A stretch of 64,000 nucleotides of DNA from Hyaloraphidium curvatum SAG 235-1 (GCA_025558095.1 JAIVFI010000017.1:372001-436000), one strand, 5' to 3'. Positions 11,432-59,102 are shown, numbered from the stretch's first letter. The notes: generated by a model not told the origin, from the letters alone. Numbers and translations: made by a program.

Positions 11432-11609
11432 CGGACTGCAGTGTATTCCCAGGTCATCGAGCGGAAGCAGCCGATGCTTGCGAGTCGGGCCGTTTCGTAG
11501 TCCCATGCTAGCTCGGGGTTTCGGACATCGCCCATTTCTCGGCCGCAACGCACCGTACGGGCCCGGACGACCCGGGAACGTGACCGCAGGGGGGTCGGTT
11601 CCACGCCAA

Positions 11610-11975: not shown

Positions 11976-12101
11976 GCGGACGGGGACCGCGAGCGAGCGC
12001 GATCTTTGCGTCACCACCCATCACCCCCATAGATCAGATCGCAGGACTCGAAGCAACGCTCCGCCAATGAATGAGGCGCGCATCTCTCATTTTGACCGTG
12101 T

Positions 12102-13579
12102 CTAGCCGTTTACATGGCGTTTGCAGCGGTAGGCATACACCTGAAGACCATTCTGGGGATTGCCGACGGGTCTCGGTCCGATCAACGCGACCTCGCGTTC
12201 CGTGCGCTCGCAAATGCTGCAAGCCTTGTCGACAATCACCCCGTGCCCCTCGAGGTGCTCTGCAAGTCGGCTGACGTGCACCTTCCGAGAGCACCGACCG
12301 TCCTGGTTCGTGCACGCCGCCACTGCCGTCCCGACGGCCGCAGAGATCGTTTTCAGCAGCTGCGACTGCAATCAGGTGCCGTCAAGCACGTTTCTACGAT
12401 GGTGTCCACGACCTTCTCGGCCACCACGCCGTTCAGACGAAGCGGCAGAGGCGTCAAGGGGGTCCATGTCTCAATTTCATTGGATTCCTTCGCCCGGCCG
12501 CCCTCACTGATGCCCACCGTGACATGGGCAACGCGACTTCGTGTCCGGATAGTGCGCTGAGCATCAATCCGCCGAACGCTGACGGCAATCACCCTCCCGC
12601 TGAGTTCGCCGAAAGCATACGCCTCAAGAGCAACCTCCGCGCCCTCTCCGCCGTTTGTCCGCAGGTACTCCGGGTCCCTGCCCATCGACAACGTGACGTG
12701 ATCGGCCGTCAACTTGGCAACCCAACTCCGCTGCAACGCAGGGTGCTCGGTCAGAGCCTTGGTGCTCCGCGCGTCGAGCAAGATTCCGGTGTAGAGCACA
12801 GTCTGTTGAATTCTCAATGGGCTAGTCGGCGGACGAAAGGAATGGTGCGCGCGCTCCGGCGTGGTCCCGGCGGCGAGGCTGGCGTTGAAGCGAGCAACCA
12901 TCCCCGCAACCAGCTGCTTCTCCATGTGTGCAGGCAGCATCTTCCTCTGACTCGCATCCTGCCGCACCAGGGAAACGCGAAAGGTGTCGATCGCGTGCGA
13001 TTTTCGGAGGTGACGGAGCTCCTCGTAAAAATGCTTGAGCTGATTGCTTCGATCGTCCCACACGCGGACGTCCCGGATACCCTTTAGTGCCTTGAGTGTG
13101 CACAGTGTCCGCAAGACGTCCCTTTTGAAGTCCATGGTAGTTTGGTAGGCGGCGGCGTTCTCCCGCAGGAAAAAGAGCGGGAAGTCCAGTTCAATTCCGG
13201 CACAGATCGCAACGATGCGGGCCATGAAACCGATCTTCCTTCCAGTCAGCAGGATCGCGAGGCAGTTCGGATCCGCTAGCGCTTCCCTCGCGTCCCTCAC
13301 GACACCGGCGTCGAACCAGTCTACTCCGGGTGCTTCCGGCACATTCGGCGGCGACAAAGTGCCCGGATCCGAAAACCACGTTCCGCTCGAGACGAGCCAC
13401 GTTGTGGTAGGGCTGTCCCACAGCACAGGGTTGGGCTCGGGAGAGCGAAAGAGGGTGGAATCAAAGTCGAACACACACAGCGAGGTGTACGGCAACACCC
13501 TGGCTCCATCGCCGAGTCGACGGAGCTCCGACTGAACGAACGCCCTAATGCGTCCAGGGAACTCGACCTCTTCCGCCAT
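12102..13579 (-). CDS. 'Swiss Army knife' RNA-repair-like protein: HAD phosphatase + 2H phosphoesterase + probable Cys/His-rich tail
   Basis: CVFDFDSTLFRSPEPNP (HAD motif I), LLTGRK, VWDDR; two HxT motifs (DHVTL, AHVTV). A probable ~47-nt intron near 12366-12412 joins a Cys/His-rich exon ending at 12102; the unspliced ORF stops at 12353. Confidence 0.85.
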
Positions 13580-14190
13580 CAAGCAGTCTCGGAAGGTGCC
13601 GTTTCCGTTTTCAGCCGCTTCAGTGCAAGAGAATTGATGCAATAGTGTCCTCCTTGGTCCTTCGGTCCGATAATGTGACCGAGGTGGGAGCTACAAATGG
13701 AGCACCGCACCTCGACCCTCCGGCCGAAGCGAGATTGCTCCGGCAATTCCAAGACGGCGTCCTCTAACGGGCCAGAGAACGATGGCCAGCCCGAATACGA
13801 ATGGAACTTGGAGCTTTCCGCAAATACCGGGGCCGAGCAGGCCGCACAGACGTAGGTGCCCTCGGTTGTAGCTTCCTTCCGCCAGTAGCGCCCCGAAAAG
13901 GCCGGCTCCGTGCCGCCCTGACGGAGAACGTTGAACCGATCCTCAGACAACCGTGCCCGCCATTCTCCTTCTGACAGCCCGGCGAAGAACTGCCTTCGTT
14001 CGCTGCGCTGTGGATCCTCGTGGGAATACTCGATCGGCGTGCCTCCGCAAGATGCTTCAACAGCGTTCCGCGATAGAAGTGCAGCGCCGCCAGCAGCCGC
14101 AACGATTATCGATGCTAGTCCAACGGCCAGTCTCGAAGCCAGGGTGAAAAGCTGGATGGACGACGTTGTTGACGTGCGAACACGCCGCAT
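13579..14190 (-). CDS. msrB: Methionine-R-sulfoxide reductase MsrB with an N-terminal hydrophobic leader
   Basis: EWRARLS...VLRQGGTEPAFSG, CAAC, SGWPSF, RVEVRCSICSSHLGH, YCINS. Confidence 0.9.
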   Translation of the reverse strand: MRRVRTSTTSSIQLFTLASRLAVGLASIIVAAAGGAALLSRNAVEASCGGTPIEYSHEDPQRSERRQFFAGLSEGEWRARLSEDRFNVLRQGGTEPAFSGRYWRKEATTEGTYVCAACSAPVFAESSKFHSYSGWPSFSGPLEDAVLELPEQSRFGRRVEVRCSICSSHLGHIIGPKDQGGHYCINSLALKRLKTETAPSETA

Positions 14191-14215
14191 CACCGGTCCC
14201 GAACAGTCGCCCACG

Positions 14216-15619
14216 ATGGACCAGAAGCTGCAGCAGATCGCGTCGAATCCGTCGCAGAAGGTGCGATGCGGCGACTGTGGTCGGATATACGCGCCTGACG
14301 CGTCGGCAATCGCCACGGACCACAGGACAAGGCGGCGCAGTACCGGGAGGCTCTGGACGGAATCTTCGCTTCCGGGCGCCCGGCCTCCGATGTGCTCCGC
14401 GATGGAAAGGCGTTCCTGTCCCACATCATTCAGGAGTCCGTCGGTCTCGTGATTTCGCGGCAGATGTACTCGGATTTCGTGGAGAAGACGGACGCGTGGT
14501 TCCGCTCGAACCAAGGAGCTGTCGACACGGACGAAATGAAAGGCCTCTGGCGCTATGCGATCGATCAGACTCAGAGCCGATTGGTTGCCTTTGAGGAGCA
14601 GGCGCGTCTGGGCGGCGGGTTGGTTCTTTCCAGGCTGATCTTCTTGCCGCAGGTCTCCACTGTGCGTGAGAAGCTGGCGCAGGTCCTGGAGGACGAGGAG
14701 GAATGGAGCGAAGCTGCCAAGACGCTCATGAACATCACTTTCGAATCCGGCCACCGCACCATTCCCGACGCTTACAAGGCACGCACGTACATCCACATCG
14801 TGCAGCTCTTGCTCGAGGACGAGGACGCGACCACTGCGGAAACCTACCTCAACCGCGCGTCGCTCATTCTGCCCAATGTCTCGGACAAGCAGCTTCTGCT
14901 GCAGTTCAAAGCGTCGCAGGCGAGGATCTCGGACTTCAAGCGCCAGGTGGATGTCGTCTCATCACGTCGCAACGCGTTCGCTGGCTCACTTTCTGGAATA
15001 GTTCTTGTCCGCCGCATCAAAATACCACGAGCTTTCGTACAACGGCGACATCGCGGACGAGGAAAAGATCTCTTGCCTGCGGCAAGCGGTCATCTGCGCG
15101 GTGCTCGCTGGCGCGGGACCGCAAAGAAGCAGGATGCTCGCCACCCTCTACAAGGACGAACGCGTGCGAGAACGGCCGGAGCTCCGCGAGGGCGGTGTCT
15201 ACCAGATCCTGGAGAAGATGTATCTGGACCGCGTGCTGAGGAAGCAGGAGGTGGAGGAGTTCTCGAGCAACCTCAAGGCGCACCAGCTCGCACGTCTGGC
15301 AGACGGCGGGACCGTCTTGGACCGCGCGGTGATGGAGCACAACATCCTCGCTGCCTCGAAGCTGTACAACAACATCCTGTTCGACGAACTCGGCGCGCTC
15401 CTCTCTATCCCTGCGGACCAAGCCGAGCAAGTCGCGAGCAAGATGATGACCGAGGGCAGATTGGACGGGAGCATCGACCAGATTGCCCGGCTCATCTTCT
15501 TCCAGGACAAGCACCTGCTTCCGACGTGGGACCAGCACATTGCCGGAGTGTGCTACCAGGTTGATGAGATCGTCGAACACCTGGGCAAGACCAACCCGAT
15601 GGTGGGTGAACTGCTGTAA
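14216..15619 (+). CDS. CSN4: COP9 signalosome subunit 4
   Basis: [64 protein letters not shown] (PCI domain); 3 introns, one GC-AG. Confidence 0.95.
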
Positions 15620-24416: not shown

Positions 24417-26830
24417 ATGATCTCCACCAGCGCGTCCTCGAGCAGCCTGCAGATGGACCCCCCGCTCATCGAGAAGCGCACAACGTTCGGCCGCGGCCAC
24501 GTCGGCCGACACCGCTTCCATATGGGCGCGAGCGATGCAAACCTCGCGCGGCCGCAGGCCGAGCCCAACTCGGCCGACGCCGGCATGGGCCTCGCGCACG
24601 AGCAGAAACCGCCGCGCCCGCTCATGCCCGAGCACAGCGACGACGGCCGCTCGGAGCTGGAGATCCCCACCATGGTCGCCAAGCTGTCGGCCGTCGGCCT
24701 CAACAAGCGCGACTCGGAGGCCACCCAGACGGACCTGTCCAGGTTCGCGTCCGTGCAGGACTTTGGCGCGCACCAGCAGCAGGCTGCGGTGTCGCCGGGG
24801 ACCGTGGACGACTGGGTGGCGCCGACTCTGAGCGCCACCGACTCGGGCATCGAGATCCTGCTCCGGAGGGCGAAGCAGTCGGCGACGTCCACCAAGGCGA
24901 GCAGCTTATAATCGGCATCCGTACGGTCGTGTCTTACATGGAGCATTGCTTCAGATTGTCGGCGACTTTTTCCAGCAGCGCGCCAACATCGAGCGGACCT
25001 ACGGCCGCGCCATACAGGAGCTGGTGCGGAGCACGCTGAGGGAGCTCGAGAGCAAGGACGGACAGGGCAAGGAGCAGTGCGTGTCTAATGTCGGACCGGC
25101 GCCCATTCCTCTGACGCCGAGCACTTGACAGGACGTTCGGCTCGCACTTCCGCGCCTTCCTCGGCGTCCACGACACCATCGGCCAGAACGCCCTCGTCCT
25201 CGCCGACCGGGTGCAGGAGATTTCCGTGGACAGCTACGCTAATGCCGGCGAGGTCACGCGGCGCCGGAAAGCGTGCAAGGAGGCCAATGAGCGCATCGCA
25301 CAGGAGATGTCTGCGTCGCTGAAGACGCTCGCAAAGGTTGGTGCGCAGCTGCCGGTCGCTTGAGCCCCGCCCAATTCACCGCAAACCAGGCCGAGCAAAA
25401 GTACCAGCTGGCGGCCCAGGACTGGGAAAAAGCCCTCCACGGCGCGGAGCTGGTCGAGATCGAGCAGGGATTCAACACCGCGCCCACGAGCCCGCTCAAG
25501 AAGCCCTTCTTCAAGACCCAGAGCCCGGCGGAGAAAGTGCGGGCCCAGGTCGACGACGCCGTGCGCAAGACGGATGCGGCCAACGTGTCCTTCAACGTCC
25601 AAATTGCGCAGACAAACAAAGACCGCAAGGACTACCTGACGCAGAAGATCCCGTCGGTTATCCAGGTTCGTGTCGGTACGCTGACCATCCATCGGGGTTC
25701 CTCACGCCGCTCCACGCGCCCGCAGAGCCTGAAGCGGGCGATCGACGACGCCGATGCCAACCTCCAGTTCAGCCTGGAAAAGTACAGCGTCAAGTACGAG
25801 GAGCGCGTCATGAGCGACGCCACCGCACTCAGCCCCCTGGACCCCAACGCCCCGAGCCTGAAGCGCACCGTTGCCGGGATCCGCAACGACCAGGACCTCT
25901 CGGACTACGTCCGCGGGGCCCTGCGCACTGCGTCGAACGGCAACGACGATAGCGTCGAGTACATCCCCCTGGCTTCCGAGGTCAAGAACCGGGACGTATT
26001 TGGGGAGACCCTCGAGGCCATCTGCGACCGCGAGGGCAGCGACGTGCCCTACGTGGTGCGCAAGTGCACCGAAGTCATCGAGCGGTTCGCCATCAACGCC
26101 CCGGGGATCTACCGCAAGAACGGGAACCCCTCAGACGTCCAGCGGCTGAGGGCGCTGTTCAACGCTGGTGGGTGGAGCTGTCATTCGGACCGGCTGCTAG
26201 ATGCTGACCGGCCCGCAGTCGAGGTCGACGGGGATGTCGTCATCTCGGACAACATGGTCGCGGGCGAGAACATCCATGTCATCTCATCGGCGCTCAAGCT
26301 GTTCTTCCGGGAGCTTCCCGACCCGCTGCTCACCAGGCAGCTGTATGAGGGCTTCCAGCAGGCTGCCAGTGAGTCTGAGCCTCTGATCGGATTGATTGCT
26401 TGCTCATCGCTACACCATCAAGTCCTTGCCCACGACGTCATCCGGGGTCAGCAGATCCACGACCTGGTCAACCACCTCCCCGACCGCAACTACATCGTCC
26501 TGAAGCATCTCATCCGGCACTTTTTGAAGTGAGCATCAACTGGTCATCACACCGGTGATCCGCTCACAGTGTCCCCGCAGGATGTGCCAATACCAACACA
26601 TCACGAAGATGGGCCCCATGCAGCTCGCCGTTGTCTGGGGCACCATCCTCGTCGGCGGCCCTATCCGTCAACCGACGTCCCCGGTAAAGACCGGCCAGGC
26701 CAAGGGCAGCGCCATAGACCTCTTCGGCCTCGGTCCCAAGGACCAGGGTCCGGCGGCTACCATTCAGAATGATGCCAAAATCCTGGAAATCATCATCCGC
26801 GAGGCGGACAAGATGTTCGACTTCGTCTGA
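24417..26830 (+). CDS. F-BAR + RhoGAP protein (Rgd1-like)
   Basis: GIEILLRRAKQS...FFQQRANIE (FCH), VFGETL...VPYVVRKC...GIYRKNG (arginine finger), ALKLFFRELPDPLL; ~7 introns, the first GC-AG. Confidence 0.9.
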
Positions 26831-26939
26831 TCCGGAAAACATAGACCCGAAACAGCAGCCGTCGCCCGAGTCGGACATTGGCTCCTGGTATTCAGCGGCC
26901 TGTAGATAGTGAATATCATTGCCCGGATTGACGGGGCCT

Positions 26940-28450
26940 TCAAACGAAATCCGGCTTGCGCTGGCGAAGCCAATCGGCTGCCCGGGCAGCATGTCAGGGA
27001 CGTCCACGCGCTAGCAATCGCAGCACGCACTCATTTGCTTCCAAAAATCGGCGACGACCTGCGAGTCCTGGTGCCGCTTGGACCGCGAGAGGTCGAGGGT
27101 GACCACGTTCCAGTCCTTTACGGGATCCTTCAAGACCTCATCCTGATATTTGAAGTAAAACCCCCGCACTGGACGCGCCAATGGCGTTAGCGATAGTTGC
27201 TCAGTGACCCCACGACGTCCGCACCGGCATGGAAGAGCTCCTGCGGTTCCCGGAAGCGGGGGTTGTAGTTGTGGAACTGCCATTTCTGCCCCTGCGCGAC
27301 CACGCCAACGACTTTCGCCCACTCGTCCTGCTTGAGCGACCCAGCCGAGTCGATGAAGCGGAAGACGATCGGGGTCCCGTCGGCCTTGGTCCGCTTGACG
27401 TCGACGTACTGCGGCTTGTCCATCGTCTGCACCATTTCCGTCGTGACGGGCCGGTAGTTCTTCTCGTTGAAAAACGCGTTGGCGTTGTACAGTTGGATCA
27501 TCGCGTTTGCGGACGACGGAAGGAGGACAAAGACGCGTGTCGGGCCCTTGGAAGCAGACGCTGACTGGGATGAAGTCGACCGAGACTGCTGCGGCTGCGA
27601 ACGGGAAGAAGAGCTCGCGGGCGGTGCTCGCGAATCGCGCGAAGCTGTTGGATTTACAGTCAGCAACGCAGCGGCGCGGCGACGTCGAACGACTCACCTC
27701 CGTTCGCTGCATGAAGAGCCTGCCCCCCCGCGGACAGCTTCTCCAAAAGAATAACCCCCACACGGCGAACTGTTTCGAACCCCTTTCCGGCCCCCTTGGC
27801 GGACATGCACGTGTGCCGGTTCTGAATCGTCCGTTCCCGGTCCGTGATCTCCTTGACGGCCGCAACGTCGTCGAATCCAGCCCGCATCCTCTTCCTTGAA
27901 TCGTCTTCGGAAAGCAAGCTATCGGCAGGCCGTTTGACTGGATGACGGCGTTCCTTTAGTGAAGATCCTGGGACAGTGCCACTGGAGTCTCACCGCCAGA
28001 AGTCGCCGGAGCTGCGCCATCCCGTTCCTCCTTAGCCCTCTCCGTGCGGGCAACCTCCCGCTTGTCCTCGAGCGCGACGACATCGTCCTGCGGCGTCTCA
28101 AGCCACGCAACGACTCTGTTGACCTCCACGAGCGAAACAACGCCGACGTTCCTGCTCGAGCACGCCAGCACATAGCGAGTGTGAGCGAACTGCGTGGAAT
28201 CCGCCGGGTAGTTGGCGATGAAGAAAATAATCTCCCCGACGGTATAGCGCGCAGCTCCGCCGGAGACGTAGCCCGACGGCGCCGACAGTGGGAACGACGC
28301 GGGTCCGTCTGGGGACGCGAACACCGCAACATTGTCCGGGGCTGCGAAATCGTCCGTGCGATCCCCCGACGGCGACCGCAGCTCGTAAGGCTTTTCCGAT
28401 TGTGCCCGCTGGGCGAAAGCAACGCGCAGGAACCGGGCAGGGGTGGCCAT
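26940..28450 (-). CDS. CDC73: Paf1 complex subunit Cdc73
   Basis: ITDRERTI, LLPSSANAMIQLYNANAFF, EWAKVVGVVAQGQKWQF, WNVVTLDLSRSKRHQD...FW; 4 introns. Confidence 0.9.
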
Positions 28451-28642
28451 CGCGTCGTCTTGGATGGATAGATTGGCTCCTCGGACTCTTCTCAGAACTT
28501 TTCGTGTCGTCGACAGAACTTGCTCGGACGCTGCTCATCGAGAGCTAGCTTTTCACACTCTCTCGACGGAGAGTTACGGCAGAATCGGAAGCGTCCGGTT
28601 TGGTACAGTTCAGAACCGGTTTTCTAGATCTAGCACGCCAAG

Positions 28643-30157
28643 ATGAGGTGGGCATGAGAAGGGGGGTACACTGGACTCCTGCTGACGCGAATCGGCGTGG
28701 AAAGCGTCGTCGACAAGATTAAGGAGATAGAATTGGAGATGAGCAGGACCCAGAAGAACAAGGTGGGGTATCGCGTGGAGTTCTGGGGTGCCCGTTCTTA
28801 TATTCCACTCGGTCGTCCATCGAAATGATACTAGGCAACCGCTATGCACCTGGGTCTTCTGAAGGCGAAGCTTGCCAAGCTGAAGCGAGAGCTGATTACG
28901 CCCTCTGGAGGGGGTGGCGGTGGAGCGGGCGTGGGATTCGACGTGGCGAAGGTGACTCTCGAACTCCTCGGCAATCGATCGACTTTCTGTCTGCAACGTT
29001 GCTTCCATTTCGCAGACCGGTGTGGCGCGCGTCGGATTCGTCGGATTTCCCTCGGTGGGAAAATCTACGTTGATGAGCAAGCTGACGGGAGTCCACTCGG
29101 AAGTTGGAGCGTGGGTTGATTCGCTGCTCCTCCTGTTGCGACAATTCAAGCCCATTGCAGTTACGAGTTTACGACCCTTACAACTGTACCGGGCGTCATC
29201 CAGTACAAAGGCGCCAAGATCCAGATGCTGGATCTCCCGGGTATCATTGAGGGCGCGAAGGACGGCAAGGGTCGCGGTCGTCAGGTACTGTGGAGCCCTG
29301 CGCTTTCGTAAGGTGTCACCTAACAGGAAAAAAGGTCATCGCTGTTGCTCGCACGTGCTCCCTCATCTTCATTGTCTTGGACGTGCTGAAACCGCTGACC
29401 GACAAGCGGATCATCGAGCGGGAACTCGAAGGCTTCGGGATCCGGCTGAACAGGCAGCCGCCGGACATCACGATCCGGAAGAAGGATCGGGGCGGTGTCT
29501 CGTTGTCGTCCACCGTAAGCCTTACGTATCTGGACCTGGAGCTGATCAAGTCGATTCTTGGCGAGTACAAGATCCACAACGCCGACGTGTCGCTGAAGTG
29601 CGATGCGACCGTGGACGACCTCATCGACGTCATCGAAGGGAACCGGAAGTACATCCCTGGTTTGTGCTGTCCTGATATCGGGAGAATCGGGCAGCTGATC
29701 GCTTTGTCAGCCCTTTATGTTCTGAACAAGATCGACCAGATCACCATCGAGGAGCTCGACGTCGTGTACAAGATTCCGCACGCGGTTCCCATTTCGGCCC
29801 ACCACGGCTGGAACTTTGACGACCTGCTCGAGAAGATGTGGGAGTACCTCGACTTGGTCCGCATCTACACGAAGCCCAAGGGCCAGCTCCCCGACTACTC
29901 GGCACCGATCGTGCTTCGGCGAGAAGCGTGCACCATCGAGGATCTGTGCAACTCTATACACAAGACACTGACGAAGCAGTTCAAGCACGCGCTCGTGTGG
30001 GGCAGCAGTGTCAAGTATAACCCTCAAAAGGTCGGGAAGGATCACACTCTGAAGGATGAGGACGTCGTTCAGATCATGTGGGTGCCGTGCCGGTATCATT
30101 GCTTCCGACCAAGACGGCTAATGGGAACTGTTCGTGCTTTGCAGCAAGAAAATCTGA
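28643..30157 (+). CDS. RBG1: Developmentally regulated GTPase DRG1/Rbg1
   Basis: EMSRTQKNK...[56 protein letters not shown] domain; ~7 introns. Confidence 0.96.
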
Positions 30158-30249
30158 AAGCAGTGCGCGGACAGATGTCTGATCGGTCATCATTCTTTGC
30201 CACGGTAGCGGACTTGTAGGAAAGATGTTGGGATGAAGACATCAAGATC

Positions 30250-32142
30250 TCATTTGGAAAAGAACTTGGTGATGCTAGCCTGCGTTGCACTGGCCTTCCC
30301 CGTCTTCGCCTTCTGCGATGCTCCGACAGGCTTCTTTCCCGACGCCGGAGACGCAGTTGCGGACCGTCCGCGGCATCCGCTGGCATGCTGTTCGATCTCC
30401 GCGTTGGGAAAGCTGCGATCGCAAAGTGGGCACACGGCAGAAGCCGAGGCCGACGGGGTCGCAGACGGGGTTTCGTCATCAGAGTCGAGCGCAATAACGC
30501 CGTCGCGGCCTGTTGTCGCATCACTCTTGATCGCCGTCCTTTCGACATCATCCGGCACCGTCTTCTCGGCAGACGACGCCAAGGGACGTTGTCGAGCAGC
30601 GCCGCCGAACAGCTTGGCAAAAGACTCCTGCTTATCGCGTTTCGCGTCGACAAGGTCTCCGAATAGCCCCTTCACTTTCTCCGCTTTCCGCGATGCTTCC
30701 GCGGGATCTTTGCTCCAGATCACGGTCGGAACGATCCTCGTTGGCTTGACAAAGCGCACGAAATCCCGCAGCTCAGAGAAACTGCTGTGCTCGCTGTACG
30801 GCACCTGAACGAGCTCGAAGCGCGAGCCTTCAGCGGTCGTTTTCTCCTGCACGGCGTAGCCCTTGTCCCCGCTCTTTTTGGACAGCTCCCACGTCCATCC
30901 CGTAGGGACGAAGGCCATGACGTCGGTATACAGAGGAACGTCGCGACCCGATTTCTCGATCCGAGTGTTCTCAAAGACAAGGCTCTGCGCAAAATAGCGC
31001 CAATCGGCCAGGAACGTCCAGCCGCCGGGGGCTGATTGGCCGAGCAGGCTCCACGGCAGCACGTGGATCGGGGTTTCCGGCGCATCAAGCGTGAACCACC
31101 GCGAAAGCGGCGGCTTCGCATCCACGTCCTTCTCGGCGCCCTCGACGCGACCCATAATGTCCGAGAGCTCCAGCAAGCTGAGCACTGCCCACTTCCGCTT
31201 GCTGACCAGCATTCGGAGTCCCGTCCGCGCGAACACGGCATCCAGGACCTTCTCTTTTCCGATCGTGTACGTGGCGATCAGAAACAGGGTCCGCCGTGGA
31301 GCTTCGCTCGCCAGGCGCTGGGCGATGAGATCTGCGATGATGCCCATTGGGACCTCCTGCCGCGGAAAGAGATGTTTCGGGTTCGCATACGTGTTGTCGA
31401 GAAAGAGCTCGTCGATGGAGATGCGGATGGGAACGTCGCCGTCGGGGGCCCGCTGCGCTGACCAATTCTCCCACCAGCCGGGCCAAGCCGGAGTTCTCTC
31501 GGGGTCGAACCGGAAATCACCGCAATGAAACACTGCCCATGCCTGGCGAAGGTGCTCCCGGCCGCGCTTCAAGGACCCCACAGCAGCAGCGCCATTCGCA
31601 GCAGCAGCACCCTTCTTGGGAGCTTCCAGTTCCCGAGGAGCAAACCCCCGGAAAAGCACGCAGATAGCGCCAGGGCAATGATTGGCATTCATCGCTCGGA
31701 GCTCGACGCCGTCGATCCATACGCTGGTGTCGAGCGGGATCGGCCTGATGTACTCGGGCTTGACGCCGAGCACGTGGCACAGAAGGCGGCCCGTGGTCTC
31801 GCTGCAGTAGATCGGGCCGGTGTCCCATCGTTCGCTGATCCCCTGGTAATGGTCCGAGTGGAAGTGGCTCAGAAGGTAGACAAAGTCCGGGGATCTATGC
31901 CGGAACGCGTCGACGAGAATGCGTGAGTCGCGGATTCGCTTGTACGACGGCAAGTCGCGAGGAGACTGCAGTTCCGCAAAGGACGGCGTGGGAGCACCGG
32001 GCGGAGACAGGCAGGAGGCTGGGAGCGGCGGCAGATCGATGACAGGAGTAGGGGCCGCGTCGAATGCGTCGTCTTCGGCCGACGCGAGGAATCCGTCGCC
32101 TTCGGTTTCCAGGTGGAGGTCTTCATCGTGTCCTCCGCTCAT
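30250..32142 (-). CDS. PSO2: Pso2/SNM1 DNA cross-link repair nuclease (MBL/beta-CASP)
   Basis: LSHFHSDHYQG, ANHCPGA, HCGDFR, LFLDNTY, YTIGKE, VPYSEHSSFSEL; C-terminal UBZ-like finger and PIP box. Confidence 0.92.
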   Translation of the reverse strand: MSGGHDEDLHLETEGDGFLASAEDDAFDAAPTPVIDLPPLPASCLSPPGAPTPSFAELQSPRDLPSYKRIRDSRILVDAFRHRSPDFVYLLSHFHSDHYQGISERWDTGPIYCSETTGRLLCHVLGVKPEYIRPIPLDTSVWIDGVELRAMNANHCPGAICVLFRGFAPRELEAPKKGAAAANGAAAVGSLKRGREHLRQAWAVFHCGDFRFDPERTPAWPGWWENWSAQRAPDGDVPIRISIDELFLDNTYANPKHLFPRQEVPMGIIADLIAQRLASEAPRRTLFLIATYTIGKEKVLDAVFARTGLRMLVSKRKWAVLSLLELSDIMGRVEGAEKDVDAKPPLSRWFTLDAPETPIHVLPWSLLGQSAPGGWTFLADWRYFAQSLVFENTRIEKSGRDVPLYTDVMAFVPTGWTWELSKKSGDKGYAVQEKTTAEGSRFELVQVPYSEHSSFSELRDFVRFVKPTRIVPTVIWSKDPAEASRKAEKVKGLFGDLVDAKRDKQESFAKLFGGAARQRPLASSAEKTVPDDVERTAIKSDATTGRDGVIALDSDDETPSATPSASASAVCPLCDRSFPNAEIEQHASGCRGRSATASPASGKKPVGASQKAKTGKASATQASITKFFSK

Positions 32143-32294
32143 CGGATCTTCGACTTCAAAGAGCGGACTCCGGGCCAGTTGCGTTGGGAAGCAAGATATG
32201 CGAACGCGTAAAACACAGTAGTGACGCTCGGACCGCCGCCGTGCAATTCTCCGAACTCCGACGAGCGCTCGGTCCACTTCATCGGCGAGGAACG

Positions 32295-33276
32295 ATGGCC
32301 TCGCTGAACGGATCCGACGGAATGGCGACGCTGGCCGGAGAGCTCTCTCGCACGATTGCCCTGTTCCCGCTGCACCATCTCGAGGACCACCTTCCCACCG
32401 CCGCCATCACCGCGCTCCTCTGTCAGCTGGCCTACCTCTCCTCCTTCACCGTCTTTGAGTCCCTGTCAAAAGCCTACCGTACGCTTGAGCGTGCGAAGAA
32501 GATCGACTTTGGCACCCGCGTGGTGTCGACATGTTTCAGCACTTACGCCGTTGCAGCCTCGCTGATGACCGTGGGCGATCCGCGCCTGGGCAGCGACAAG
32601 CTCTTTGGCTACTCTTACGAAGCTGGGCAAGTGATGGGCGTCGCTCTGGGTTACTTTCTCTGGGACCTGTTCATCTGCACCCAGCACTTCCGCCTTTTCG
32701 GACCGGGCTTCTTGGTGCATGCGATCTGCTGCATCAACATCTACCTGTGGATCATGCGGCCGTTCCTCATGTACTTTGGAGTGAAGGTCTTGCTCTGGGA
32801 ACTCAGCGTGAGTGCGTGGCGTCATCGACGGCACTCCGATCCTTACACGCGTAGATCAGACTCCGTTTGTCAACAACCATTGGTTCATGGACAAGCTGGG
32901 CTACACGGGATCCAGCTTGCAGCTGGCAAACGGACTTCTCCTCATCGGTGCATTCTTCGGCATCCGCATCGTGTACGGCAGCATCACGAGCACCAAGTTC
33001 TTTTGTGTGTGCGATCGGCCATTCCCGTGAAAGCAAACTGACATCCATGCCGCTGGACCAGACGAAATGATTTCGCGGCGCGACGAGCTCCCTCCTTATC
33101 TGCCATACATCTATGGAATCGGCAATCTGACACTTAACTTCCTCAACTTGTTTTGGTAGTGTGGGCACCCCACCGCGCAGGCGTCAGTAGCTGACCGGCA
33201 ATCCAGGTTCTCCAAGATGATCCGCAGCGTGCACTCCAGGTTCCACAGCAGCGAGACAGAGATCAAGAAGCAGTAG
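32295..33276 (+). CDS. TLC (TRAM/LAG1/CLN8) domain membrane protein, TMEM56/Tda4-like
   Basis: GYFLWDL, GFLVHA, WELS-TPFVNNHWFMDK, FFGIRIVYG, LNFLNLFWFSKMI; 3 introns. Confidence 0.88.
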
Positions 33277-33318
33277 CAGACGAAGTAGCATCGGAAGTGT
33301 AAATCAAGAGTTTTTGGA

Positions 33319-34755
33319 TCAGAAGAGTGGAATGTCGGTCGGATCTCCGGCAACGTAAACGTCCTCGGCGGTCAGTAGCTTCTCCCCCGCCTTGATCTGC
33401 TTGTCCAGCAGGACCATGGCTCGAGCTCCCCGCAACCGGAGCCCGACACCCTCAACGTCCCGCGGCACCTTGCATTCAGCCTCGCCGGGATTGATCCGAA
33501 TCAGGAAGCCCGCCCCATGCGCAGAGCGCACCAGCGATTCCGAGACGTTGCGCAGCACAGGGTTCGTCAAACCGGCACCGACTTCGATCACCACGATCCG
33601 CGGGGGTTCGTTTTCCATCACTGCCGTGAGCTCCCGGAGATGGGCATCAAAGCGATCCTTCTGCACATCCACGCGAGCGGTCTTGAACTCCGAGTCGCCC
33701 AGCATGAGTATGTTAGGCCGCATGATGGACCCACAAGAGGTACAGCGAGGGATTGTTTTGACGTCGGCAAGCATCGTCTCGCGATCCACCTTGACACCCA
33801 ACCGACCGTCCTCGCGGCCCACCGAGTCGCTGACCCGCGTTACTCCGCTGGTGCAGTTCTTGTCCAAGCAGGCCAGGTGGTTGATCGAGCCGTGTATCTC
33901 GAGGATATTTTCGGCAGGTAACCCAGCCCTGCGGAACAACCCCTCGATTTGAGTGGTGTATACGAAAGGTGGGAACCGCCTGGTGTTTGCGTAATTCAGG
34001 AGGACATGGTATCCTTCATGCGGTTGTGCTTCCAGAGCCCTGTCATATCTGGTCGCGTAAAAGGCCCACGCCATTCGTGGATTGGATCTGAACTTGGATA
34101 GAGAAGCCACATCGTACAGGGTCAATCCGAGTGCGGCGAACGCTGGGAAGGCCGCCGCGAAGCCTTCGGGCGTGCGTAGATCCGCGACGCCGGACTCGAA
34201 CGCAAAGCCAGCCCCAGCAGTTACGATGATCACGTCGGAGCGAGCGATTTGCACGGCCGCGGCATGCAGAGCGTCCCGCAGGGGTCTACTTGGAGGATGC
34301 TTCGCAGAATCCGACGTGACCGACCCATCGTCGGGCGCTGATCCGGAGGAGAACGTTCGAGACAGGGGAAGCGAGGTCCGAGAATAGCGGGGCAGGCTTC
34401 GTCCCGAAGACGCCTTAAAAGGGCGAGATACCGCCCATTCTAGGCCGGGAAAAGACACCGGCACTCGCTTGTTGTTGTGCTCAGGGTCGGAGCCCACGAT
34501 GTGCAGATAGACGGAGAGGCCGGAAGCAGCCAAAGCGGGAGACGGCTTGCGGGACGAGGCAGCCGACGCAGCCGACGCAGCTGTAGCAAATGCACGCGTC
34601 CTTTGAAGCACACCACCGAAAGGCACAGAGAGGCCCGCGGACGGGCCCGGAGGAGCAGGCTGTGGCGTCGACGTGGCGGTGAACCGGGGTCGCGTAGTTC
34701 TGGGGAGCTCCACCGGCCGGTAACAAGGGGCCAAGAGCCGCCAAGAACTGCGCAT
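33319..34755 (-). CDS. Divergent bacterial-type sirtuin (SIR2 family) with a presequence-like N-terminus
   Basis: VTAGAG, AWAFY, PHEGY, EIHGS, CLDKNC...CTSC, RPNILMLGD, IEVGAG, LIRINP. Confidence 0.85.
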   Translation of the reverse strand: MRSSWRLLAPCYRPVELPRTTRPRFTATSTPQPAPPGPSAGLSVPFGGVLQRTRAFATAASAASAASSRKPSPALAASGLSVYLHIVGSDPEHNNKRVPVSFPGLEWAVSRPFKASSGRSLPRYSRTSLPLSRTFSSGSAPDDGSVTSDSAKHPPSRPLRDALHAAAVQIARSDVIIVTAGAGFAFESGVADLRTPEGFAAAFPAFAALGLTLYDVASLSKFRSNPRMAWAFYATRYDRALEAQPHEGYHVLLNYANTRRFPPFVYTTQIEGLFRRAGLPAENILEIHGSINHLACLDKNCTSGVTRVSDSVGREDGRLGVKVDRETMLADVKTIPRCTSCGSIMRPNILMLGDSEFKTARVDVQKDRFDAHLRELTAVMENEPPRIVVIEVGAGLTNPVLRNVSESLVRSAHGAGFLIRINPGEAECKVPRDVEGVGLRLRGARAMVLLDKQIKAGEKLLTAEDVYVAGDPTDIPLF

Positions 34756-34939
34756 CGTGACTCGGCGACGTCGTTATCGCGGCTCAATCGAGCGGATTCG
34801 GAGTTGTAGGGCGCTTTGGCGCACTGTCGCCCGGGCAGGCTTCCCCCGGTCGGGGAGTGCACGCAACCCGCAGTCAACATCCTTCAGGGACCTCCGGCCC
34901 GATCGTCGTGATTTTTGAAGATCTATCAGAACAAGCCAG

Positions 34940-37127
34940 CTAAAATTTGAACTTCTCCTTCCCCTTCTTGTCCTTGTCCTTCTTCTCATCTGTGGTCTTC
35001 CGCCGCTTCGCCTGCTTCTGCGCGTGTTCCGCGACCAAATCGGAGAAGTCCTCCTCTTCCCCCCGCGAAGCCTGCTGGCTCTCGTCGTACTTGCGCCGGA
35101 TGGCGTCCTCGTCCAGCCCTTCTTCGAGGTCCTCCGGGTTGAAGGCCAGATCCACACCGTCACCCGCCGCCGCCTTCCGCTTCGAAGTCCCGCTTCCCAT
35201 CGCAGCCGCAGCCGCCAGCGCCGCGGCACTCGCCGCCGAACCGGGCCCTGCCTTCGGCAGCAATCCGCTCGTGGGAATCGCGGCCGTGGGAGCCTTGACG
35301 CCCCCGAGATCATAGACCCGCTCGGATCCCATGAAGCCGGAAATGTCCTGCTGTCGCTCCTGGATGACCTGGTAAAGCTGTTTCGGGCCATCGTCCTCCG
35401 CAGCCCTGCGAAAGGAGGAATGAGCGTGCGATCACAAGGAGGCACAACTCATCCCACCTCCTGGCATCCTTGCGAAGCTCCAGAAACTCGGGCGTCTCCA
35501 GGCCGCTGGGCACGGAACTCGCCAGGCCGCTCGGAGTCGCCAGACCGGCTGGCGTCTCGAGTCCGTCCTGCGAGTAGTTATCCCCGGCACCTTCGTCGGC
35601 CTCCTCCTCCTCGTCCTCCTCCTCTTCCTCGGCCTCCTCCTCTTCTTCCAGCTCACCCCAGGGCGTCTTCTCGATCGGGGCCATGTGCTGCGAATGAGCG
35701 GCCGAGGTTAGCAGAGGTATAGAGTGCCAGCCGCGAACGCGTTACCTCAAGATTCCTCTGCACATGGACCATGCCAAAAACGTCGCCGTAGAGGGGCCGT
35801 CCAAATTCGTCGACCGGCGGCTTTCCCCAGCCGCCCGGGTGGAATCCCCACTGCGCACCGTCGGGAATCGGGGCGTTCAGCCCGGGTATCCTCAAGTTTG
35901 GGTAGGAAGGAGGCGGGCCGTAGCGCTGCATGTTGACGAGCCACGGCGGCGGCGCCAAAGGGGGCATGCCCAAGGCCTCCTTGAGCTCGTCGCTCAGATG
36001 CCCCGGCTTCTTCTCCTTGAGCTTCGCCTCGAACTCCTTCCCCTCGTAGTAAAGATCGCCGTGAGTCGTAAGGTACGGCTTCGTTTGCCACTTGAAGAAG
36101 GCGTCGTGCATCTTTTGGTAGTCGATGTTCAGCTTGTTCATTTTCGGCTGATGCCGCTCCCTCGTCTTGGACTTGAGCTTCGCGGCATCCTCCTTCTCCT
36201 TTGTCGCAGCACGCATCTCCATGATCCCCGTCGCTTTGATGAAATCTGACCGCCGGAGAACGACAGTCAGCGGGATGGATCCGCGCTATAGCCTTGCATA
36301 CCCACCAGGAAGCTCAAAAGGAGGTTTCTCGATGCCCCTCTTCCCCTGCAAGTATTTGCGCTTCTGATTCCAGTGCGCCGGGAGAGGTACCGTATTCCGC
36401 AGGGATTTGAGGTGGACCAGCAGCTTCGGGTCCGCCGCGGTGACATCGACCCACTGCCGGCAAAAGCGTGTCACAAATGTGCCATCAGAGATGACAACGT
36501 CCAACGACCCACCTCGACGACCTCGGGTTTCTTCACCAGCTGTTTCAGCTCCGCGACCGTGAGCCGATTCAACCGCCGTATCTTGGCCTTGCTCATGGCT
36601 GGCTTCTGCTCATCCTCCTTTCCTTCCTCAGGCTTTGCTTCGTCGTCGTCCGAAAGCAGCGCTTTCCGCTCCTTTTCCTCCTCCGTCTCCTGCTTCTCGC
36701 CCGAAGGCTCCCCGAAAACCGAGCCATTTTCCGCTCCCTCCTTGGGCAGCGAGAACCGCTCGAAAACCGATGCAAACTCGGCAAAAGCCGGATCGTCCGA
36801 CGGAATGGTCAGAGGCGGCGCGACGTACTCGATTTCGACGTCGAGGTCGACCTGAAGAGGGGACATCGTTGCAGGCGGGAAACGACACAACCCGACGCGA
36901 CCCACGGTGCCGGTGTCGTCCTCGTCCGTCTCGCTCGCGGCATAGCTCCGACCGTTCGCGCGGCGCGCGGCTCTCCGCTTCTTCTTCTTCCGCGATTTGT
37001 CGGTCCGGCCCGCGGTCGTGACTGACGCTGTCTCCGAGTCGGACGCGTGCGGGTCGCGCGCCGCCTCGAACGACCGGCCGGCCAGTTGCGGGAGCGAAGA
37101 AGAGTCGATGATGCGCGCCGAGCTCAT
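34940..37127 (-). CDS. SF3B2: Splicing factor 3B subunit 2 (SAP145/Cus1)
   Basis: RLTVAELKQLVKKPEVVE, NTVPLPAHWNQKRKYLQGKRGIEKPPFELP, PPPWLVNMQRYGPPPSYP, GGWGKPPVDEFGRPLYGDVFG, C-terminal KFKF. Confidence 0.96.
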
Positions 37128-37432
37128 TGCGACTGACAGGCGGGGGTTTCGCGTGCAGTAGGTTGGGCCGGCAGTACAGCCAAGCGAAAGATGATGATCT
37201 CCTGCAGACGCACTGCGCACTTCAAAGACTCGGCCGTTGTCGCCCAAACTACATCAGAGAACATCAAAGGGAAATAGAAACGCCTATCCTCGCTCATACA
37301 GTGGCTCTCCGGGGTCCTTCGCTCGCTTCGACCTCAGCTTCGCGGCAGAGTCGGCTTGCGGCCTCGCAAAGCGGATCCATCCGCCTCCTCGGCTTCAGCG
37401 TTCATATCCAGTGTATATCCTCGTGCTCTTCC

Positions 37433-37900
37433 TCAGCAGTCCTCAACGCCGTGGATGACATGCTTGCACATGAGCATCGTGGATGGTTCGAAGTGGTCTG
37501 CGGGATCAGTCAGTTGAACACTGGTAAAATGCTGCCAGCTGTACCCACAGGTGACGTCGACAAGCTTCCCGGCGGGAGGCATGTTGGGATTTCGCAGCTT
37601 CACGCGCAAGGCATTCGGGGCCTCGTGCATCTCCACAACGGAGACTGGGGCCGACCCTCCTCCAAAATCCATCTCGTACATCGGCTGAAACAACGCAATG
37701 TAAGCAGGAAGAAACACCGTAGTTTGAGAGGAAACAAAGAGGAGGCCAAGGCAGGGGCCCACCTTGAGATTCTCCACGCCTCGGGCAAGCTCGTGTTCGC
37801 CGAGAACGACGATGCAGTCCGGCTTCAAGTGAGCCAAAACCCCAGCCAGGTCGCGCGAGTTGTAAGCCTGAAGGTAATCTTTGAATGCGGCCTCCGCCAT
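37433..37900 (-). CDS. Small SnoaL/NTF2-like protein
   Basis: YLQAYNSRDLAGVLAHLKPDC N-terminal helix pattern; two GT-AG introns. Confidence 0.7.
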   Translation of the reverse strand: MAEAAFKDYLQAYNSRDLAGVLAHLKPDCIVVLGEHELARGVENLKVGPCLGLLFVSSQTTVFLPAYIALFQPMYEMDFGGGSAPVSVVEMHEAPNALRVKLRNPNMPPAGKLVDVTCGYSWQHFTSVQLTDPADHFEPSTMLMCKHVIHGVEDC

Positions 37901-38048
37901 TTGGCCTGAATGGTGTGCGTCCGCCCGGTGGAGCAATGTTGTTTTTGGCCTCGCTCCGGACAGGCCTGCCCGCACGTAACCTGGGAGCCTGAAAGGCATC
38001 CCGAATCTGGTTCCTACTCATACGTATGCAAGCCAAAACTTACAAGCG

Positions 38049-40805: not shown

Positions 40806-41165
40806 CTCTGAGGGCGGCCCTCGAGACGAGGGCGCGGTGCGGGCGGCGAAAGTGCGGCTCAGCGCGGTGAAACTGCAGAGAAAGCGCCGGAGCGCATCCG
40901 CGGTTTGGGGTTTGGAGGGGATGTCCTCGATGACGTCTTGATCGTGGGTGCTAGAAGAAGGCGCAGCTGCGTCAGCCCCGCCGTCTCCTCGGATCCTTGA
41001 GTCAAATTCGCGAACGATCAGGATCGAGGCGAAACGGTCTCGATTCTCTAATTCATCCATCTAAACATCAAGCCCGAATTGGGCCGTAGGATTGAGGCCC
41101 GCACGAACTCGCAAAACCCGTGCAATAAGTCTACACACCAGGGAACAGCAGAGCACCACGGGAAG

Positions 41166-41811
41166 CTACTTTCCCTCGTTGAGCTTCCTTTCCAGATCGC
41201 GCAGCACCCTCAGGCTCTCGTCCATTTCCGCCTTTTCCAATCTGGGGCCGCGGGGAACGCAATTGGCAGTCACCAGTGGTCAGCTGAACGACAGTACCGC
41301 GGCCAACTGAAGCCCACCTCGGTGCGGGAGGCGGCTCGAGCCCCCTTCGCAGCATCTCCCGCGTCAGCTCGTCCCTGCGCTCCTTGAACTCCTCCCAGGA
41401 CTCCTCGTACGTGTCCCACACGCAGTGCGCGCAGCCCGATCCGCAGCACGTATCGGGCCGCTCCGGCGGCCGCATATGGCGCAGCAGGTACTCGATGACC
41501 GGGGTCGACAGCCGGTCGAGCTCGGCGGGCGACGCGGTGGTCATGGTGGAGGACGGGTGGGCGGGCGGGATGCCGCCGAGGTAGCGCGGCCCCGGCACTT
41601 CGGTCGCCGTCTGAAGGGGATCGTCGCGCACGGGGGCCGAGGGCTGCGGCGGGGCCGGGTCCGGCCGGGGCGGCGACTCCGGCGCGGCCTGCGAGGAAGC
41701 GGGCCGCCGCGTGCAGCCGGCGGCCGGAGGGGGCAACAAGCGCCGCCGGGCGCCAAGCCGCGGTGTCCGCAGGGCGTGCAGACGTGTCCGGACGAGCCGA
41801 ATGCCGTCCAT
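41166..41811 (-). CDS. Oxidoreductase-like domain protein (OXLD1/UPF0651 type), probably mitochondrial
   Basis: PPERPDTCCGSGCAHCVWDTY; Arg-rich presequence; last exon MDESLRVLRDLERKL. Confidence 0.85.
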
Positions 41812-41887
41812 CGGTGTGCGTTCGGGCGATCGGAGTCGCAAGCGCGTTGGCGTCGGAAGCGTCGCCGCCGTAAACACAACACACCCG

Positions 41888-43703: not shown

Positions 43704-43791
43704 TTTGTTGGCAGCCCCGGTCAATACATCCCCCATCGCGAGCGGAGTGATGTGTCGGCGCGCCGAGCCACCCACTCCACCTCTTCGCGCG

Positions 43792-58337: not shown

Positions 58338-59102
58338 ATGCGACCAGTGCTACGAAGCCTGCTTCCCCCGGCGCGACCGTTGCTACGAAGGAGCTTCTCG
58401 TCCTCGGCGGACACGGACATCCCAAGGCTACATAAGCTACAACCGGCCTCCGTGCACCTCCAACCCTCCGCACTGCTCCGGCACTTGCTCTCGGACGCGG
58501 ACCTGAGTCCCCTTCGTTATGATTTCGCGGAGGAGCTCGAACGGCACCCCGAATTTGCCTCGCTCCTGGGAGGGCGTTACGGGAACGACCACCGGACCGC
58601 ATCGTTGGTCTACTTCGTTCCTCGGACATACGCGTCGAGAGCCTCGGACTCTGTGTGCTTCCGCTCGGAGCATCCCGCGGACGCCAGAATTGAAGACATC
58701 TGGTTGGTCGGGGCAGCGAGCTTCACCGAATACGTTGCTGGTCCTGCACCGGACGCGGTGCACGGAGGCGCCATCGCGACGCAGTTGGACAACCTCTGCG
58801 GCTTTGTCTCGAACGGCCTCTATTACACGGGCCACCGGACAGCGTCTCTGCACGTCAATTACAGAGCGAGAGTGCCTACGGTGCACACCGTTGCTTTCCG
58901 TGCGCGGATCGATCGAGTTGAAGGTCGTAAAACGTTTGTGTCGACGGCATTCCTTGATCCGGACTCGGTTATCCGACACGGCTTCTATTGGAACACGGGC
59001 CACGGTCACGGACCATCACACGGGCCGACGGTGCTTGCGGATGCGGCGGCGCTCATGATTCACGTCGGGAAGACGCATGCCAAGGCTCATATGACAGCCT
59101 GA
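58338..59102 (+). CDS. Hotdog-fold acyl-CoA thioesterase (THEM4-like), probably mitochondrial
   Basis: GPAPDAVHGGAIATQLD, TASLHVNYR, EGRKTFV; presequence. Confidence 0.85.
   Translation: MRPVLRSLLPPARPLLRRSFSSSADTDIPRLHKLQPASVHLQPSALLRHLLSDADLSPLRYDFAEELERHPEFASLLGGRYGNDHRTASLVYFVPRTYASRASDSVCFRSEHPADARIEDIWLVGAASFTEYVAGPAPDAVHGGAIATQLDNLCGFVSNGLYYTGHRTASLHVNYRARVPTVHTVAFRARIDRVEGRKTFVSTAFLDPDSVIRHGFYWNTGHGHGPSHGPTVLADAAALMIHVGKTHAKAHMTA

What the first reader, a model, noticed from the sequence alone, without database searches (positions are those of the whole stretch)
12102..14190. MsrB stop overlaps the start of a HAD/2H RNA-repair gene (TGATG): possible translationally coupled bicistron in a fungus
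Seen: on the minus strand the MsrB TGA (13581-13579) shares its A with the ATG (13579-13577) of the next gene. There is no intergenic DNA, and the only earlier in-frame ATG (13642) lies inside MsrB. Known: stop-start pentamers drive termination-reinitiation in bacterial operons and in viruses (UAAUG in influenza B BM2 and hypovirus CHV1) but are rare in nuclear genes. Inference: one mRNA may co-express protein (Met-sulfoxide) repair and RNA end-healing as an oxidative-damage module. No calicivirus-type UGGGA TURBS motif was seen in the ~100 nt upstream.
Basis: partly seen in the sequence, partly recalled or inferred. Interest (0 to 1): 0.8.

Follow-up and report, generated by a model that had tools for sequence, protein, structure and literature searches.

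The report
Candidate two-gene messenger in a fungus
In a tightly packed fungal genome, the stop signal of a protein-repair gene overlaps the start signal of a predicted RNA-repair gene, and the first gene has almost no internal start signals, so both proteins may come from one messenger RNA, as in green algae, although two separate overlapping messengers are nearly as likely.

Summary
The TGATG junction is real. MsrB (14190-13579, minus strand, 203 aa) ends on the start of an intact HAD_SAK_1/2H gene (13579-12353, 408 aa), and an RNA contig crosses it unspliced with no differences. Corrections: 13642 is TTG, not ATG; the second gene ends at 12353, not 12102. The contig does not show one mRNA, because contigs of this run join up to nine neighbouring genes on both strands. 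New here: MsrB holds 1 internal ATG against about 7.5 expected, a hallmark of green-algal bicistrons read by leaky scanning; but 1 of 20 other genes in the window is equally ATG-poor without a partner. No TURBS motif was found, the pair's conservation could not be tested, and nothing supports an oxidative-damage module. Earlier scan notes report similar junctions, with other genes, in an arthropod-like genome, a diatom and Ostreococcus (unchecked). New member of a known kind; interest 0.4.

The parts
13579..14190 (-). ORF1: methionine-R-sulfoxide reductase MsrB, 203 aa, intronless in the RNA contig; N-terminal 44 aa have 5 Arg, 10 Ser/Thr, no Asp/Glu and a hydrophobic stretch (organelle-targeting-like, inferred)
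   Evidence: Pfam SelR 113.3 bits, cut-off 24.9; PDB MsrB hits; alignment; N-terminus; unspliced
13577..13581 (-). TGATG stop-start junction; ORF2 is in the -1 frame relative to ORF1
   Evidence: Sequence; RNA contig identical across it
12353..13579 (-). ORF2: HAD_SAK_1 phosphatase plus 2H phosphoesterase, 408 aa; lacks the C-terminal domain of chytrid relatives
   Evidence: Pfam HAD_SAK_1 101.6 bits, cut-off 25.6; tRNA_lig_CPD 17.7, below its cut-off 23; motifs D38xD40, T112, K152, D176, H294xT296, H352xT354; model pLDDT 94.8; fold matches to CNPase, a fungal RNA kinase entry and Pnkp1
13943..13963 (-). The only ATG inside MsrB: a 6-codon ORF (MAGTVV) with A at -3 and G at +4, ending 363 nt before the ORF2 start
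13582..13960 (-). ATG-free stretch of 379 nt before the ORF2 start (4.7 expected); the nearest upstream ATG is farther from this start than from any of the other 20 starts examined
13640..13642 (-).
12076..12352 (-). Likely 3' untranslated region; the RNA contig begins at 12076; TGTA at 12139 and 12114; the Met-less 81-codon frame 12347-12102 lies here
14216..14218 (+). Likely start of the divergent COP9 subunit 4 gene, 25 nt from the MsrB ATG; its first intron (about 14259-14323) is spliced in the contig. A shared promoter is inferred

Best explanation
MsrB and the HAD/2H gene abut with a one-base overlap and are likely transcribed as one minus-strand mRNA (about 14200 to 12076) from which both proteins would be made separately, the second probably by leaky scanning. 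Shown: two intact, separate ORFs; the overlap; no splice across it in the RNA contig; one internal ATG in 606 nt of MsrB. Inferred: the mRNA starts shortly before the MsrB ATG, squeezed by the divergent COP9 subunit 4 gene 25 nt away; some 40S subunits pass that ATG, scan the ATG-poor MsrB frame, skip or reinitiate after the 6-codon ORF, and start at 13579. On this reading the TGATG pentamer is what an intergenic gap of zero looks like and does not itself drive expression of ORF2.
For: ATG is the most depleted of all 64 trimers in MsrB (1 observed, 7.4 expected, Poisson P 0.005); observed/expected is 0.13 against 0.62-1.74 in 16 other coding stretches; the antisense strand is normal (8 vs 7.1); 49 MsrB homologues back-translated with local codon usage gave 1 or fewer ATGs in 0.18% of 4900 simulations. 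0 of 299 overlapping 606-nt windows from 17 other coding stretches had 1 or fewer. AUG depletion in ORF1, a shorter ORF1 and a very short spacer are the reported marks of green-algal bicistrons (PMC11892635); here ORF1 is 612 nt, ORF2 1227 nt, and the gap is -1 against about 148-305 nt for 4 other tandem pairs. ATG 13579 is the true start: chytrid homologues begin a few residues before the same N-terminal motif and residues 7-22 form a confident helix. No contig retains COP9 intron 1, a weak hint that the MsrB leader is under about 70 nt. No TGTA lies on the minus strand between the MsrB stop and 12139, also weak.
Against: No stranded or full-length RNA evidence exists: the bridging contig also joins opposite-strand genes, and another joins nine gene models over 15,149 nt. 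My first control set missed a counter-example: the thioesterase gene at 58338-59102 has 1 ATG in its first 606 nt (6.4 expected) and no same-strand partner, so the empirical rate is 1 of 20 other genes, not 0.5%. With the protein held fixed, the out-of-frame count alone is unremarkable (P 0.08-0.37), and absence of internal Met has P about 0.05. Most of the signal is the last 379 nt (P 0.009); the first 224 nt give P 0.063, so a HAD start site inside MsrB explains it as well. Start contexts do not follow the algal pattern: the one internal ATG is in a textbook-strong context, MsrB has G at -3 (7 of 19 other starts), ORF2 has T at -3 (1 of 19). Absence of TGTA from 1227 nt of coding sequence has P 0.28. 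Conservation was not shown.
Confidence: 0.44

Rival explanations
1. Two overlapping, functionally monocistronic mRNAs. The HAD gene has its own start site inside the MsrB coding sequence (possibly from the promoter shared with COP9 subunit 4, giving a long ATG-free leader); the MsrB mRNA ends inside or after the HAD gene but yields only MsrB. The junction is a by-product of genome compaction.
For: Transcript overlap is pervasive. Divergent starts lie 12, 25, 74, 76, 82, 154, 192 and 447 nt apart, and one convergent pair overlaps by 18 coding bases, so promoters and leaders likely sit on neighbours' coding DNA here. The 100 nt at 13700-13601 are the most AT-rich bin (0.50) of the 25 bins from 14400 to 11900. 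Overlapping transcription at more than 80% of analysed loci is reported for Encephalitozoon cuniculi (PMC2803860 passage); genes in Plicaturopsis polycistronic transcripts are also transcribed independently (PMC4503453 passage). An ATG-poor ORF can arise without a partner.
Against: The other 4 tandem pairs keep about 148-305 nt between ORFs. The ATG-free run before ORF2 (384 nt) is the longest of 21 starts (others 56-370), so this reading needs an unusually long leader or luck. The sequence upstream of ORF2 scores like coding DNA, not like leaders, in a small dinucleotide classifier with weak separation. PMC2803860 says transcription signals lie in adjacent coding sequences only rarely.
Confidence: 0.4
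2. One mRNA, with ORF2 made by termination-reinitiation: ribosomes finishing MsrB restart on the overlapping AUG.
For: The geometry matches the overlapping stop-start of influenza B M1/BM2 (PMC3035654, listing) and of the SART1 retrotransposon (reference title). AUG scarcity near the stop could be selected under reinitiation (PMC11892635 passage). Fungal viruses CHV1 and HvV190S reinitiate using upstream coding sequence (PMC10275272 passage), and selected yeast can reinitiate by 80S ribosomes without cis-elements (PMC11952965 abstract). The unusual T at -3 of ORF2 matters little under reinitiation.
Against: No UGGGA or GGGA in 200 nt; no folding beyond shuffles at 13700-13560. Depletion extends 380-600 nt upstream. 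Reinitiation after long ORFs is described as presumably very rare outside viruses. TGATG precedes 8.6% of all ATGs here, including MsrB's own.
Confidence: 0.11
3. A single MsrB-HAD/2H fusion protein made by splicing or by a -1 frameshift in the 111 nt where both frames are open.
For: The ORF2 frame is open from 13690 to the junction.
Against: The contig is unspliced; no 45-90 nt intron candidate matching my donor and acceptor patterns spans the stop, and MsrB has no X XXY YYZ heptamer; 0 of 151 HAD homologues carry an MsrB domain; the search for longer MsrB relatives returned 1 protein, without HAD_SAK_1; ORF2 has a normal family N-terminus.
Confidence: 0.02

Closest known systems
Nuclear bicistronic genes of green algae translated by leaky scanning (Gallaher 2021, PMC7896298; PMC11892635)
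   Same: Two independent ORFs, a shorter ORF1, a very short spacer, AUG depletion before ORF2; ORF1 possibly organelle-targeted.
   Different: Here the spacer is -1 (algal medians 40 and 183 nt), ORF1 is longer (612 nt vs medians 291 and 357), start contexts do not show weak-ORF1/strong-ORF2, and there is no long-read, proteomic or conservation evidence. The host is a fungus.
Overlapping and read-through transcription in compact or fungal genomes (microsporidia, PMC2803860; Plicaturopsis, PMC4503453; budding yeast, PMC8573964)
   Same: Neighbouring transcripts overlap throughout the gene-dense clusters of this window.
   Different: In Plicaturopsis the genes are also transcribed on their own, and overlapping coding sequences are called very rare in E. 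cuniculi; here the two coding sequences touch.
Viral and retroelement stop-start termination-reinitiation (influenza B BM2, calicivirus TURBS, CHV1, HvV190S, SART1)
   Same: Overlapping stop and start codons in a pentamer.
   Different: No TURBS motif, no notable structure, a nuclear housekeeping context, and the pentamer is UGAUG.
Pfam HAD_SAK_1 (PF10307) HAD-plus-2H proteins of chytrids and other early-diverging fungi
   Same: HAD and 2H motifs, fold, and conserved N-terminus; 32-38% identity to chytrid-type proteins.
   Different: Forms a separate clade with two unnamed proteins (P0001, P0002; SH-aLRT 99 in a quick tree), and lacks the C-terminal domain. An RNA-repair role is a family prediction, not tested.
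MsrB/SelR methionine-R-sulfoxide reductases
   Same: GWPSF, HLGH, two CxxC pairs and the catalytic Cys184 are present.
   Different: His replaces the Arg two residues before the catalytic Cys and the preceding loop is 1-3 residues shorter without the usual Asp; activity may be altered (role of these residues recalled, not read).

Membership tests
Green-algal-type nuclear bicistron | Two separate ORFs, each with its own start and stop | tested here: met
Green-algal-type nuclear bicistron | Both ORFs consistently and exclusively on one mature mRNA | tested here: inconclusive
   One unspliced contig bridges them, but contigs are unstranded and bridge all neighbours; no long reads were listed
Green-algal-type nuclear bicistron | ORF1 shorter than ORF2; spacer far shorter than for other tandem genes | tested here: met
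   612 vs 1227 nt; -1 vs about 148-305 nt for 4 other pairs
Green-algal-type nuclear bicistron | AUG depletion upstream of ORF2 | tested here: met
   Observed/expected 0.13; caveat: 1 of 20 other genes is as low, 0.16
Green-algal-type nuclear bicistron | Weaker start context at ORF1 than at ORF2 | tested here: inconclusive
   ORF1 -3 G/+4 C, ORF2 -3 T/+4 G; 19 window starts give only a weak consensus
Green-algal-type nuclear bicistron | Pair conserved in relatives | not testable with these tools
Green-algal-type nuclear bicistron | Both proteins translated from the shared mRNA | not testable with these tools
   Needs ribosome profiling or reporters
TURBS-type termination-reinitiation | Stop and start codons overlapping or adjacent | tested here: met
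TURBS-type termination-reinitiation | UGGGA motif upstream of the junction (motif from the finding and from recall) | tested here: not met
   None in 200 nt
TURBS-type termination-reinitiation | Structured RNA element upstream of the stop | tested here: inconclusive
   13700-13560 folds no better than shuffles, z -0.12; pseudoknots are not modelled
Overlapping monocistronic transcription in compact genomes | Neighbouring transcripts overlap generally | tested here: met
   Contigs of 5,402 and 15,149 nt carry introns of both strands
Overlapping monocistronic transcription in compact genomes | Own capped start site for the downstream gene inside the upstream gene | not testable with these tools
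   Contigs cannot show RNA ends
HAD_SAK_1 (PF10307) with 2H domain | Pfam score above cut-off and HAD motifs | tested here: met
   101.6 vs 25.6 bits; D38, D40, T112, K152, D176 invariant in 13 sequences
HAD_SAK_1 (PF10307) with 2H domain | Two HxT motifs in a 2H fold | tested here: met
   H294xT296 and H352xT354; Foldseek matches to CNPase at E about 1e-4 with low TM-scores, 0.36-0.46 by target; Pfam tRNA_lig_CPD stays below its cut-off
HAD_SAK_1 (PF10307) with 2H domain | RNA end-healing activity | not testable with these tools
   Family annotation only; best sequence hit in PDB is Pnkp1, E 0.0014
MsrB (SelR, PF01641) | Pfam score above cut-off; catalytic Cys, HLGH, GWPSF, two CxxC | tested here: met
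   113.3 vs 24.9 bits
MsrB (SelR, PF01641) | Conserved Arg two residues before the catalytic Cys (role recalled) | tested here: not met
   His at 182 where the other 11 aligned sequences have Arg; does not remove family membership, may affect activity

The most novel reading that the evidence does not exclude
An early-diverging fungus makes two unrelated enzymes from one nuclear mRNA with a zero-length spacer, having purged ORF1 of AUGs, and its tightly packed housekeeping clusters hold more such bicistrons: functional bicistronic translation as a genome-wide strategy in fungi. A bolder sub-case (about 0.1) is TURBS-free termination-reinitiation on a cellular mRNA after a 203-codon ORF.
Probability: 0.3. 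Interest if true: 0.7.

Novelty: new member of a known kind. Interest (0 to 1): 0.4.

Why it matters
[quoted passage not shown] A native fungal case with touching ORFs would extend the mechanism to a new lineage and give one locus where leaky scanning, short-ORF reinitiation and stop-start reinitiation can be separated by a few point changes. If the second gene has its own internal start site, the locus is an ordinary result of compaction.

Tried and rejected
No whole genome is held, so no genome-wide gap histogram. No RNA holder is on record and only contigs were available; run X1 is judged RNA from its spliced introns; run X2 gave only short scattered pieces. Conservation: first metagenome scan 0 of 169 candidate stretches; second 4 of 73, one fungal-type and three that look prokaryotic or viral, none with MsrB; prokaryote genomes 0 of 1; viral contigs 0 of 3. 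A leader-versus-coding dinucleotide classifier trained on 19 starts separates poorly and is not decisive. TGTA as a 3'-end signal: 16 in 4500 nt after stops, 12 of 18 genes, against 1.3 per kb overall; too weak to place the MsrB 3' end. Horizontal origin of MsrB: the named hits among 116 look bacterial, but the atlas gave only leads under 0.9, mixed in domain, and no eukaryotic reference set was at hand; not concluded. An extra exon to 12102: rejected. The careful tree did not finish; only the quick tree of 36 rows is cited. The wide structural search was not run. The paper I recall as defining HAD_SAK_1 (Burroughs and Aravind 2016) is not held; searches for it gave 0 papers or unrelated ones. 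A search on the MsrB catalytic triad gave nothing useful. In one search the frame chosen for DRMBL was a shadow frame, which affects the in-frame/out-of-frame split and the codon table of that call but not total ATG counts; one search used a codon table from up to 8 other stretches. No supplements were read; the algal papers' datasets might list bicistrons with overlapping ORFs.

Full report
Observation. On the minus strand an ORF runs 14190-13579 (203 aa) and the next 13579-12353 (408 aa); the TGA of the first and the ATG of the second share the A at 13579. Pfam calls them SelR/MsrB (113.3 bits) and HAD_SAK_1 (101.6 bits), with a sub-threshold tRNA_lig_CPD match at the C-terminus of the second. 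Two details of the finding are wrong: 13642 is TTG, and no in-frame ATG lies between the in-frame stop at 13693-13691 and 13579; and the second gene ends at 12353, not 12102. Its two closest homologues end at the same place and the relatives' extra C-terminal domain is absent from all 3 frames downstream.

Host. Introns of 50-75 nt with GT..AG ends, a Zds_C domain (fungal range recalled) and named HAD homologues from Chytriomyces, Polychytrium, Rhizoclosmatium, Powellomyces, Borealophlyctis and Polyrhizophydium point to an early-diverging fungus. The lineage was not determined. In a quick tree of 36 rows the protein groups with two unnamed proteins, apart from the named chytrids.

Both genes are real and separate. 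ATG 13579 is the start: several chytrid homologues begin a few residues before the same N-terminal motif, and residues 7-22 form a confident helix in a model of mean pLDDT 94.8. HAD motifs and two HxT motifs are intact; the model matches CNPase, a fungal RNA kinase entry and Pnkp1, with low TM-scores, and the best PDB sequence hit is Pnkp1. RNA repair is therefore a family prediction. MsrB keeps GWPSF, HLGH, two CxxC and Cys184, but has His where 11 of 11 aligned relatives have Arg before the catalytic Cys. A fusion is unlikely: 0 of 151 HAD homologues have an MsrB domain, the one longer MsrB relative lacks HAD_SAK_1, and no slippery heptamer or intron candidate spans the stop.

RNA evidence. 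Run X1, judged RNA from its spliced introns, has one 5,402-nt contig identical to 12076-14258 without gaps. That confirms the junction and the absence of splicing in the main path. It does not show one mRNA: the same contig continues through the plus-strand COP9 subunit 4 gene and the minus-strand PCF11 gene, and a control lay on 25000-44900 gave a 15,149-nt contig through nine of my gene models on both strands. Contigs give no ends, strand or level.

Context. The clusters are very compact. By my own gene models (gene names from Pfam or from recall) 8 divergent pairs have 12-447 nt between ATGs, 4 other tandem pairs have about 148-305 nt, and one convergent pair overlaps by 18 coding bases. 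MsrB's ATG is 25 nt from that of COP9 subunit 4. So promoters on coding DNA are likely here, which makes an internal start site for the HAD gene feasible; yet the -1 gap is far outside the other tandem gaps. The pentamer alone means little: 131 of 1525 ATGs in the window follow TG, including MsrB's own.

The ATG test. Green-algal bicistrons show AUG depletion in ORF1, a short ORF1, short spacers, short leaders and weak ORF1 start contexts (PMC11892635: passages, section 8 whole). I applied the first test. MsrB has 1 internal ATG in 606 nt against 7.4-7.5 expected (P about 0.005); ATG is its most depleted trimer of 64; the antisense strand is normal; 16 other coding stretches give observed/expected 0.62-1.74; back-translated homologues reach 1 or fewer in 0.18% of simulations. 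Against this: a window-wide scan found 16 spans of 560 nt or more with a single ATG, MsrB's among them and several antisense to genes or GC-rich, and a thioesterase gene that my first control set had left out is as poor (1 vs 6.4) with no same-strand partner, so 1 of 20 other genes matches MsrB. Split up, absence of Met has P 0.05 and the out-of-frame count P 0.08-0.37. The last 379 nt carry most of the signal (P 0.009; first 224 nt P 0.063). The single internal ATG opens a 6-codon ORF in a strong-looking context, 363 nt before ORF2, which scanning ribosomes would have to skip or reinitiate after; reinitiation after short ORFs is the common type (PMC5972666 passages). Start contexts do not show the algal pattern.

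Mechanisms. I favour one mRNA read by leaky scanning (0.44): it explains the zero gap and the ATG scarcity together. A separate HAD mRNA from a start site inside MsrB (0.40) explains them too if its leader is long, and fits the pervasive overlap; such overlap is reported in microsporidia (PMC2803860 passages) and fungal polycistronic genes are also transcribed alone (PMC4503453 passages; yeast bicistronic RNAs, PMC8573964 abstract). Termination-reinitiation at the pentamer (0.11) lacks a TURBS motif or notable structure, though fungal viruses use other upstream elements (PMC10275272 passages) and selected yeast can reinitiate without cis-elements (PMC11952965 abstract and passages). These odds are my judgement, not a computed result.

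Functional link. Nothing supports a co-regulated oxidative-damage module. Of 4 related loci, none has MsrB in the DNA held; the one fungal-type locus has only about 300 nt upstream. The DNA around the two closest homologues was out of reach, so conservation is untested rather than refuted.

Novelty. The kind is known from green algae (PMC7896298 passages). A search for bicistronic, chytrid and leaky scanning together found 0 papers; broader searches listed no chytrid case among the papers shown (14 of 16, 12 of 16 and 15 of 93). The library lacks most subscription papers, and I read no supplements. Earlier scan notes describe similar junctions with other genes in an arthropod-like genome, a diatom and Ostreococcus (unchecked, seen after I had read the algal paper); none concerns this genome or this protein. 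Verdict: a real but unproven candidate bicistron, new member of a known kind, interest 0.4.

Noticed in passing
window 53896-53913: Tail-to-tail overlap of 18 coding bases between a long plus-strand ORF (ends 53913) and a minus-strand HAD-like hydrolase (ends 53896).
   Followed up: partly
window 58338-59102 (+): Thioesterase-superfamily ORF of 254 aa with a presequence-like N-terminus has 1 ATG in its first 606 nt (6.4 expected) and no same-strand partner; a convergent WD40 gene ends 28 nt away.
   Followed up: partly
window 14190-14429 (-): MsrB's own ATG also sits in a TGATG; the TGA closes a 79-codon ATG ORF that is antisense to COP9 subunit 4 and crosses its first intron, probably a shadow ORF.
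   Followed up: partly
window 32282-32295 and 14190-14216: Divergent gene pairs whose first ATGs are only 12 and 25 nt apart; the first depends on which ATG (32282 or 32142) the nuclease gene uses.
   Followed up: partly
window 13640-13680 (-): The MsrB active-site loop is shortened and has His for the conserved Arg; it lies in the most AT-rich 100 nt of the locus, possibly reflecting a second role as promoter or leader.
   Followed up: no
window-wide, after stop codons: TGTA occurs 16 times in 4500 nt downstream of 18 stops against 1.3 per kb overall; a possible 3'-end element in this organism.
   Followed up: partly
window 25000-40921: One 15,149-nt RNA contig runs through nine gene models on both strands, indicating continuous transcript overlap across the cluster.
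   Followed up: partly
window 11500-11600: A short repeated element: many contigs of both runs pile up here with loose ends and one shared difference.
   Followed up: no
L002:888-2904: In a prokaryote- or phage-like metagenome locus the HAD_SAK-like gene overlaps the end of an upstream 327-aa ORF; no MsrB is present.
   Followed up: no
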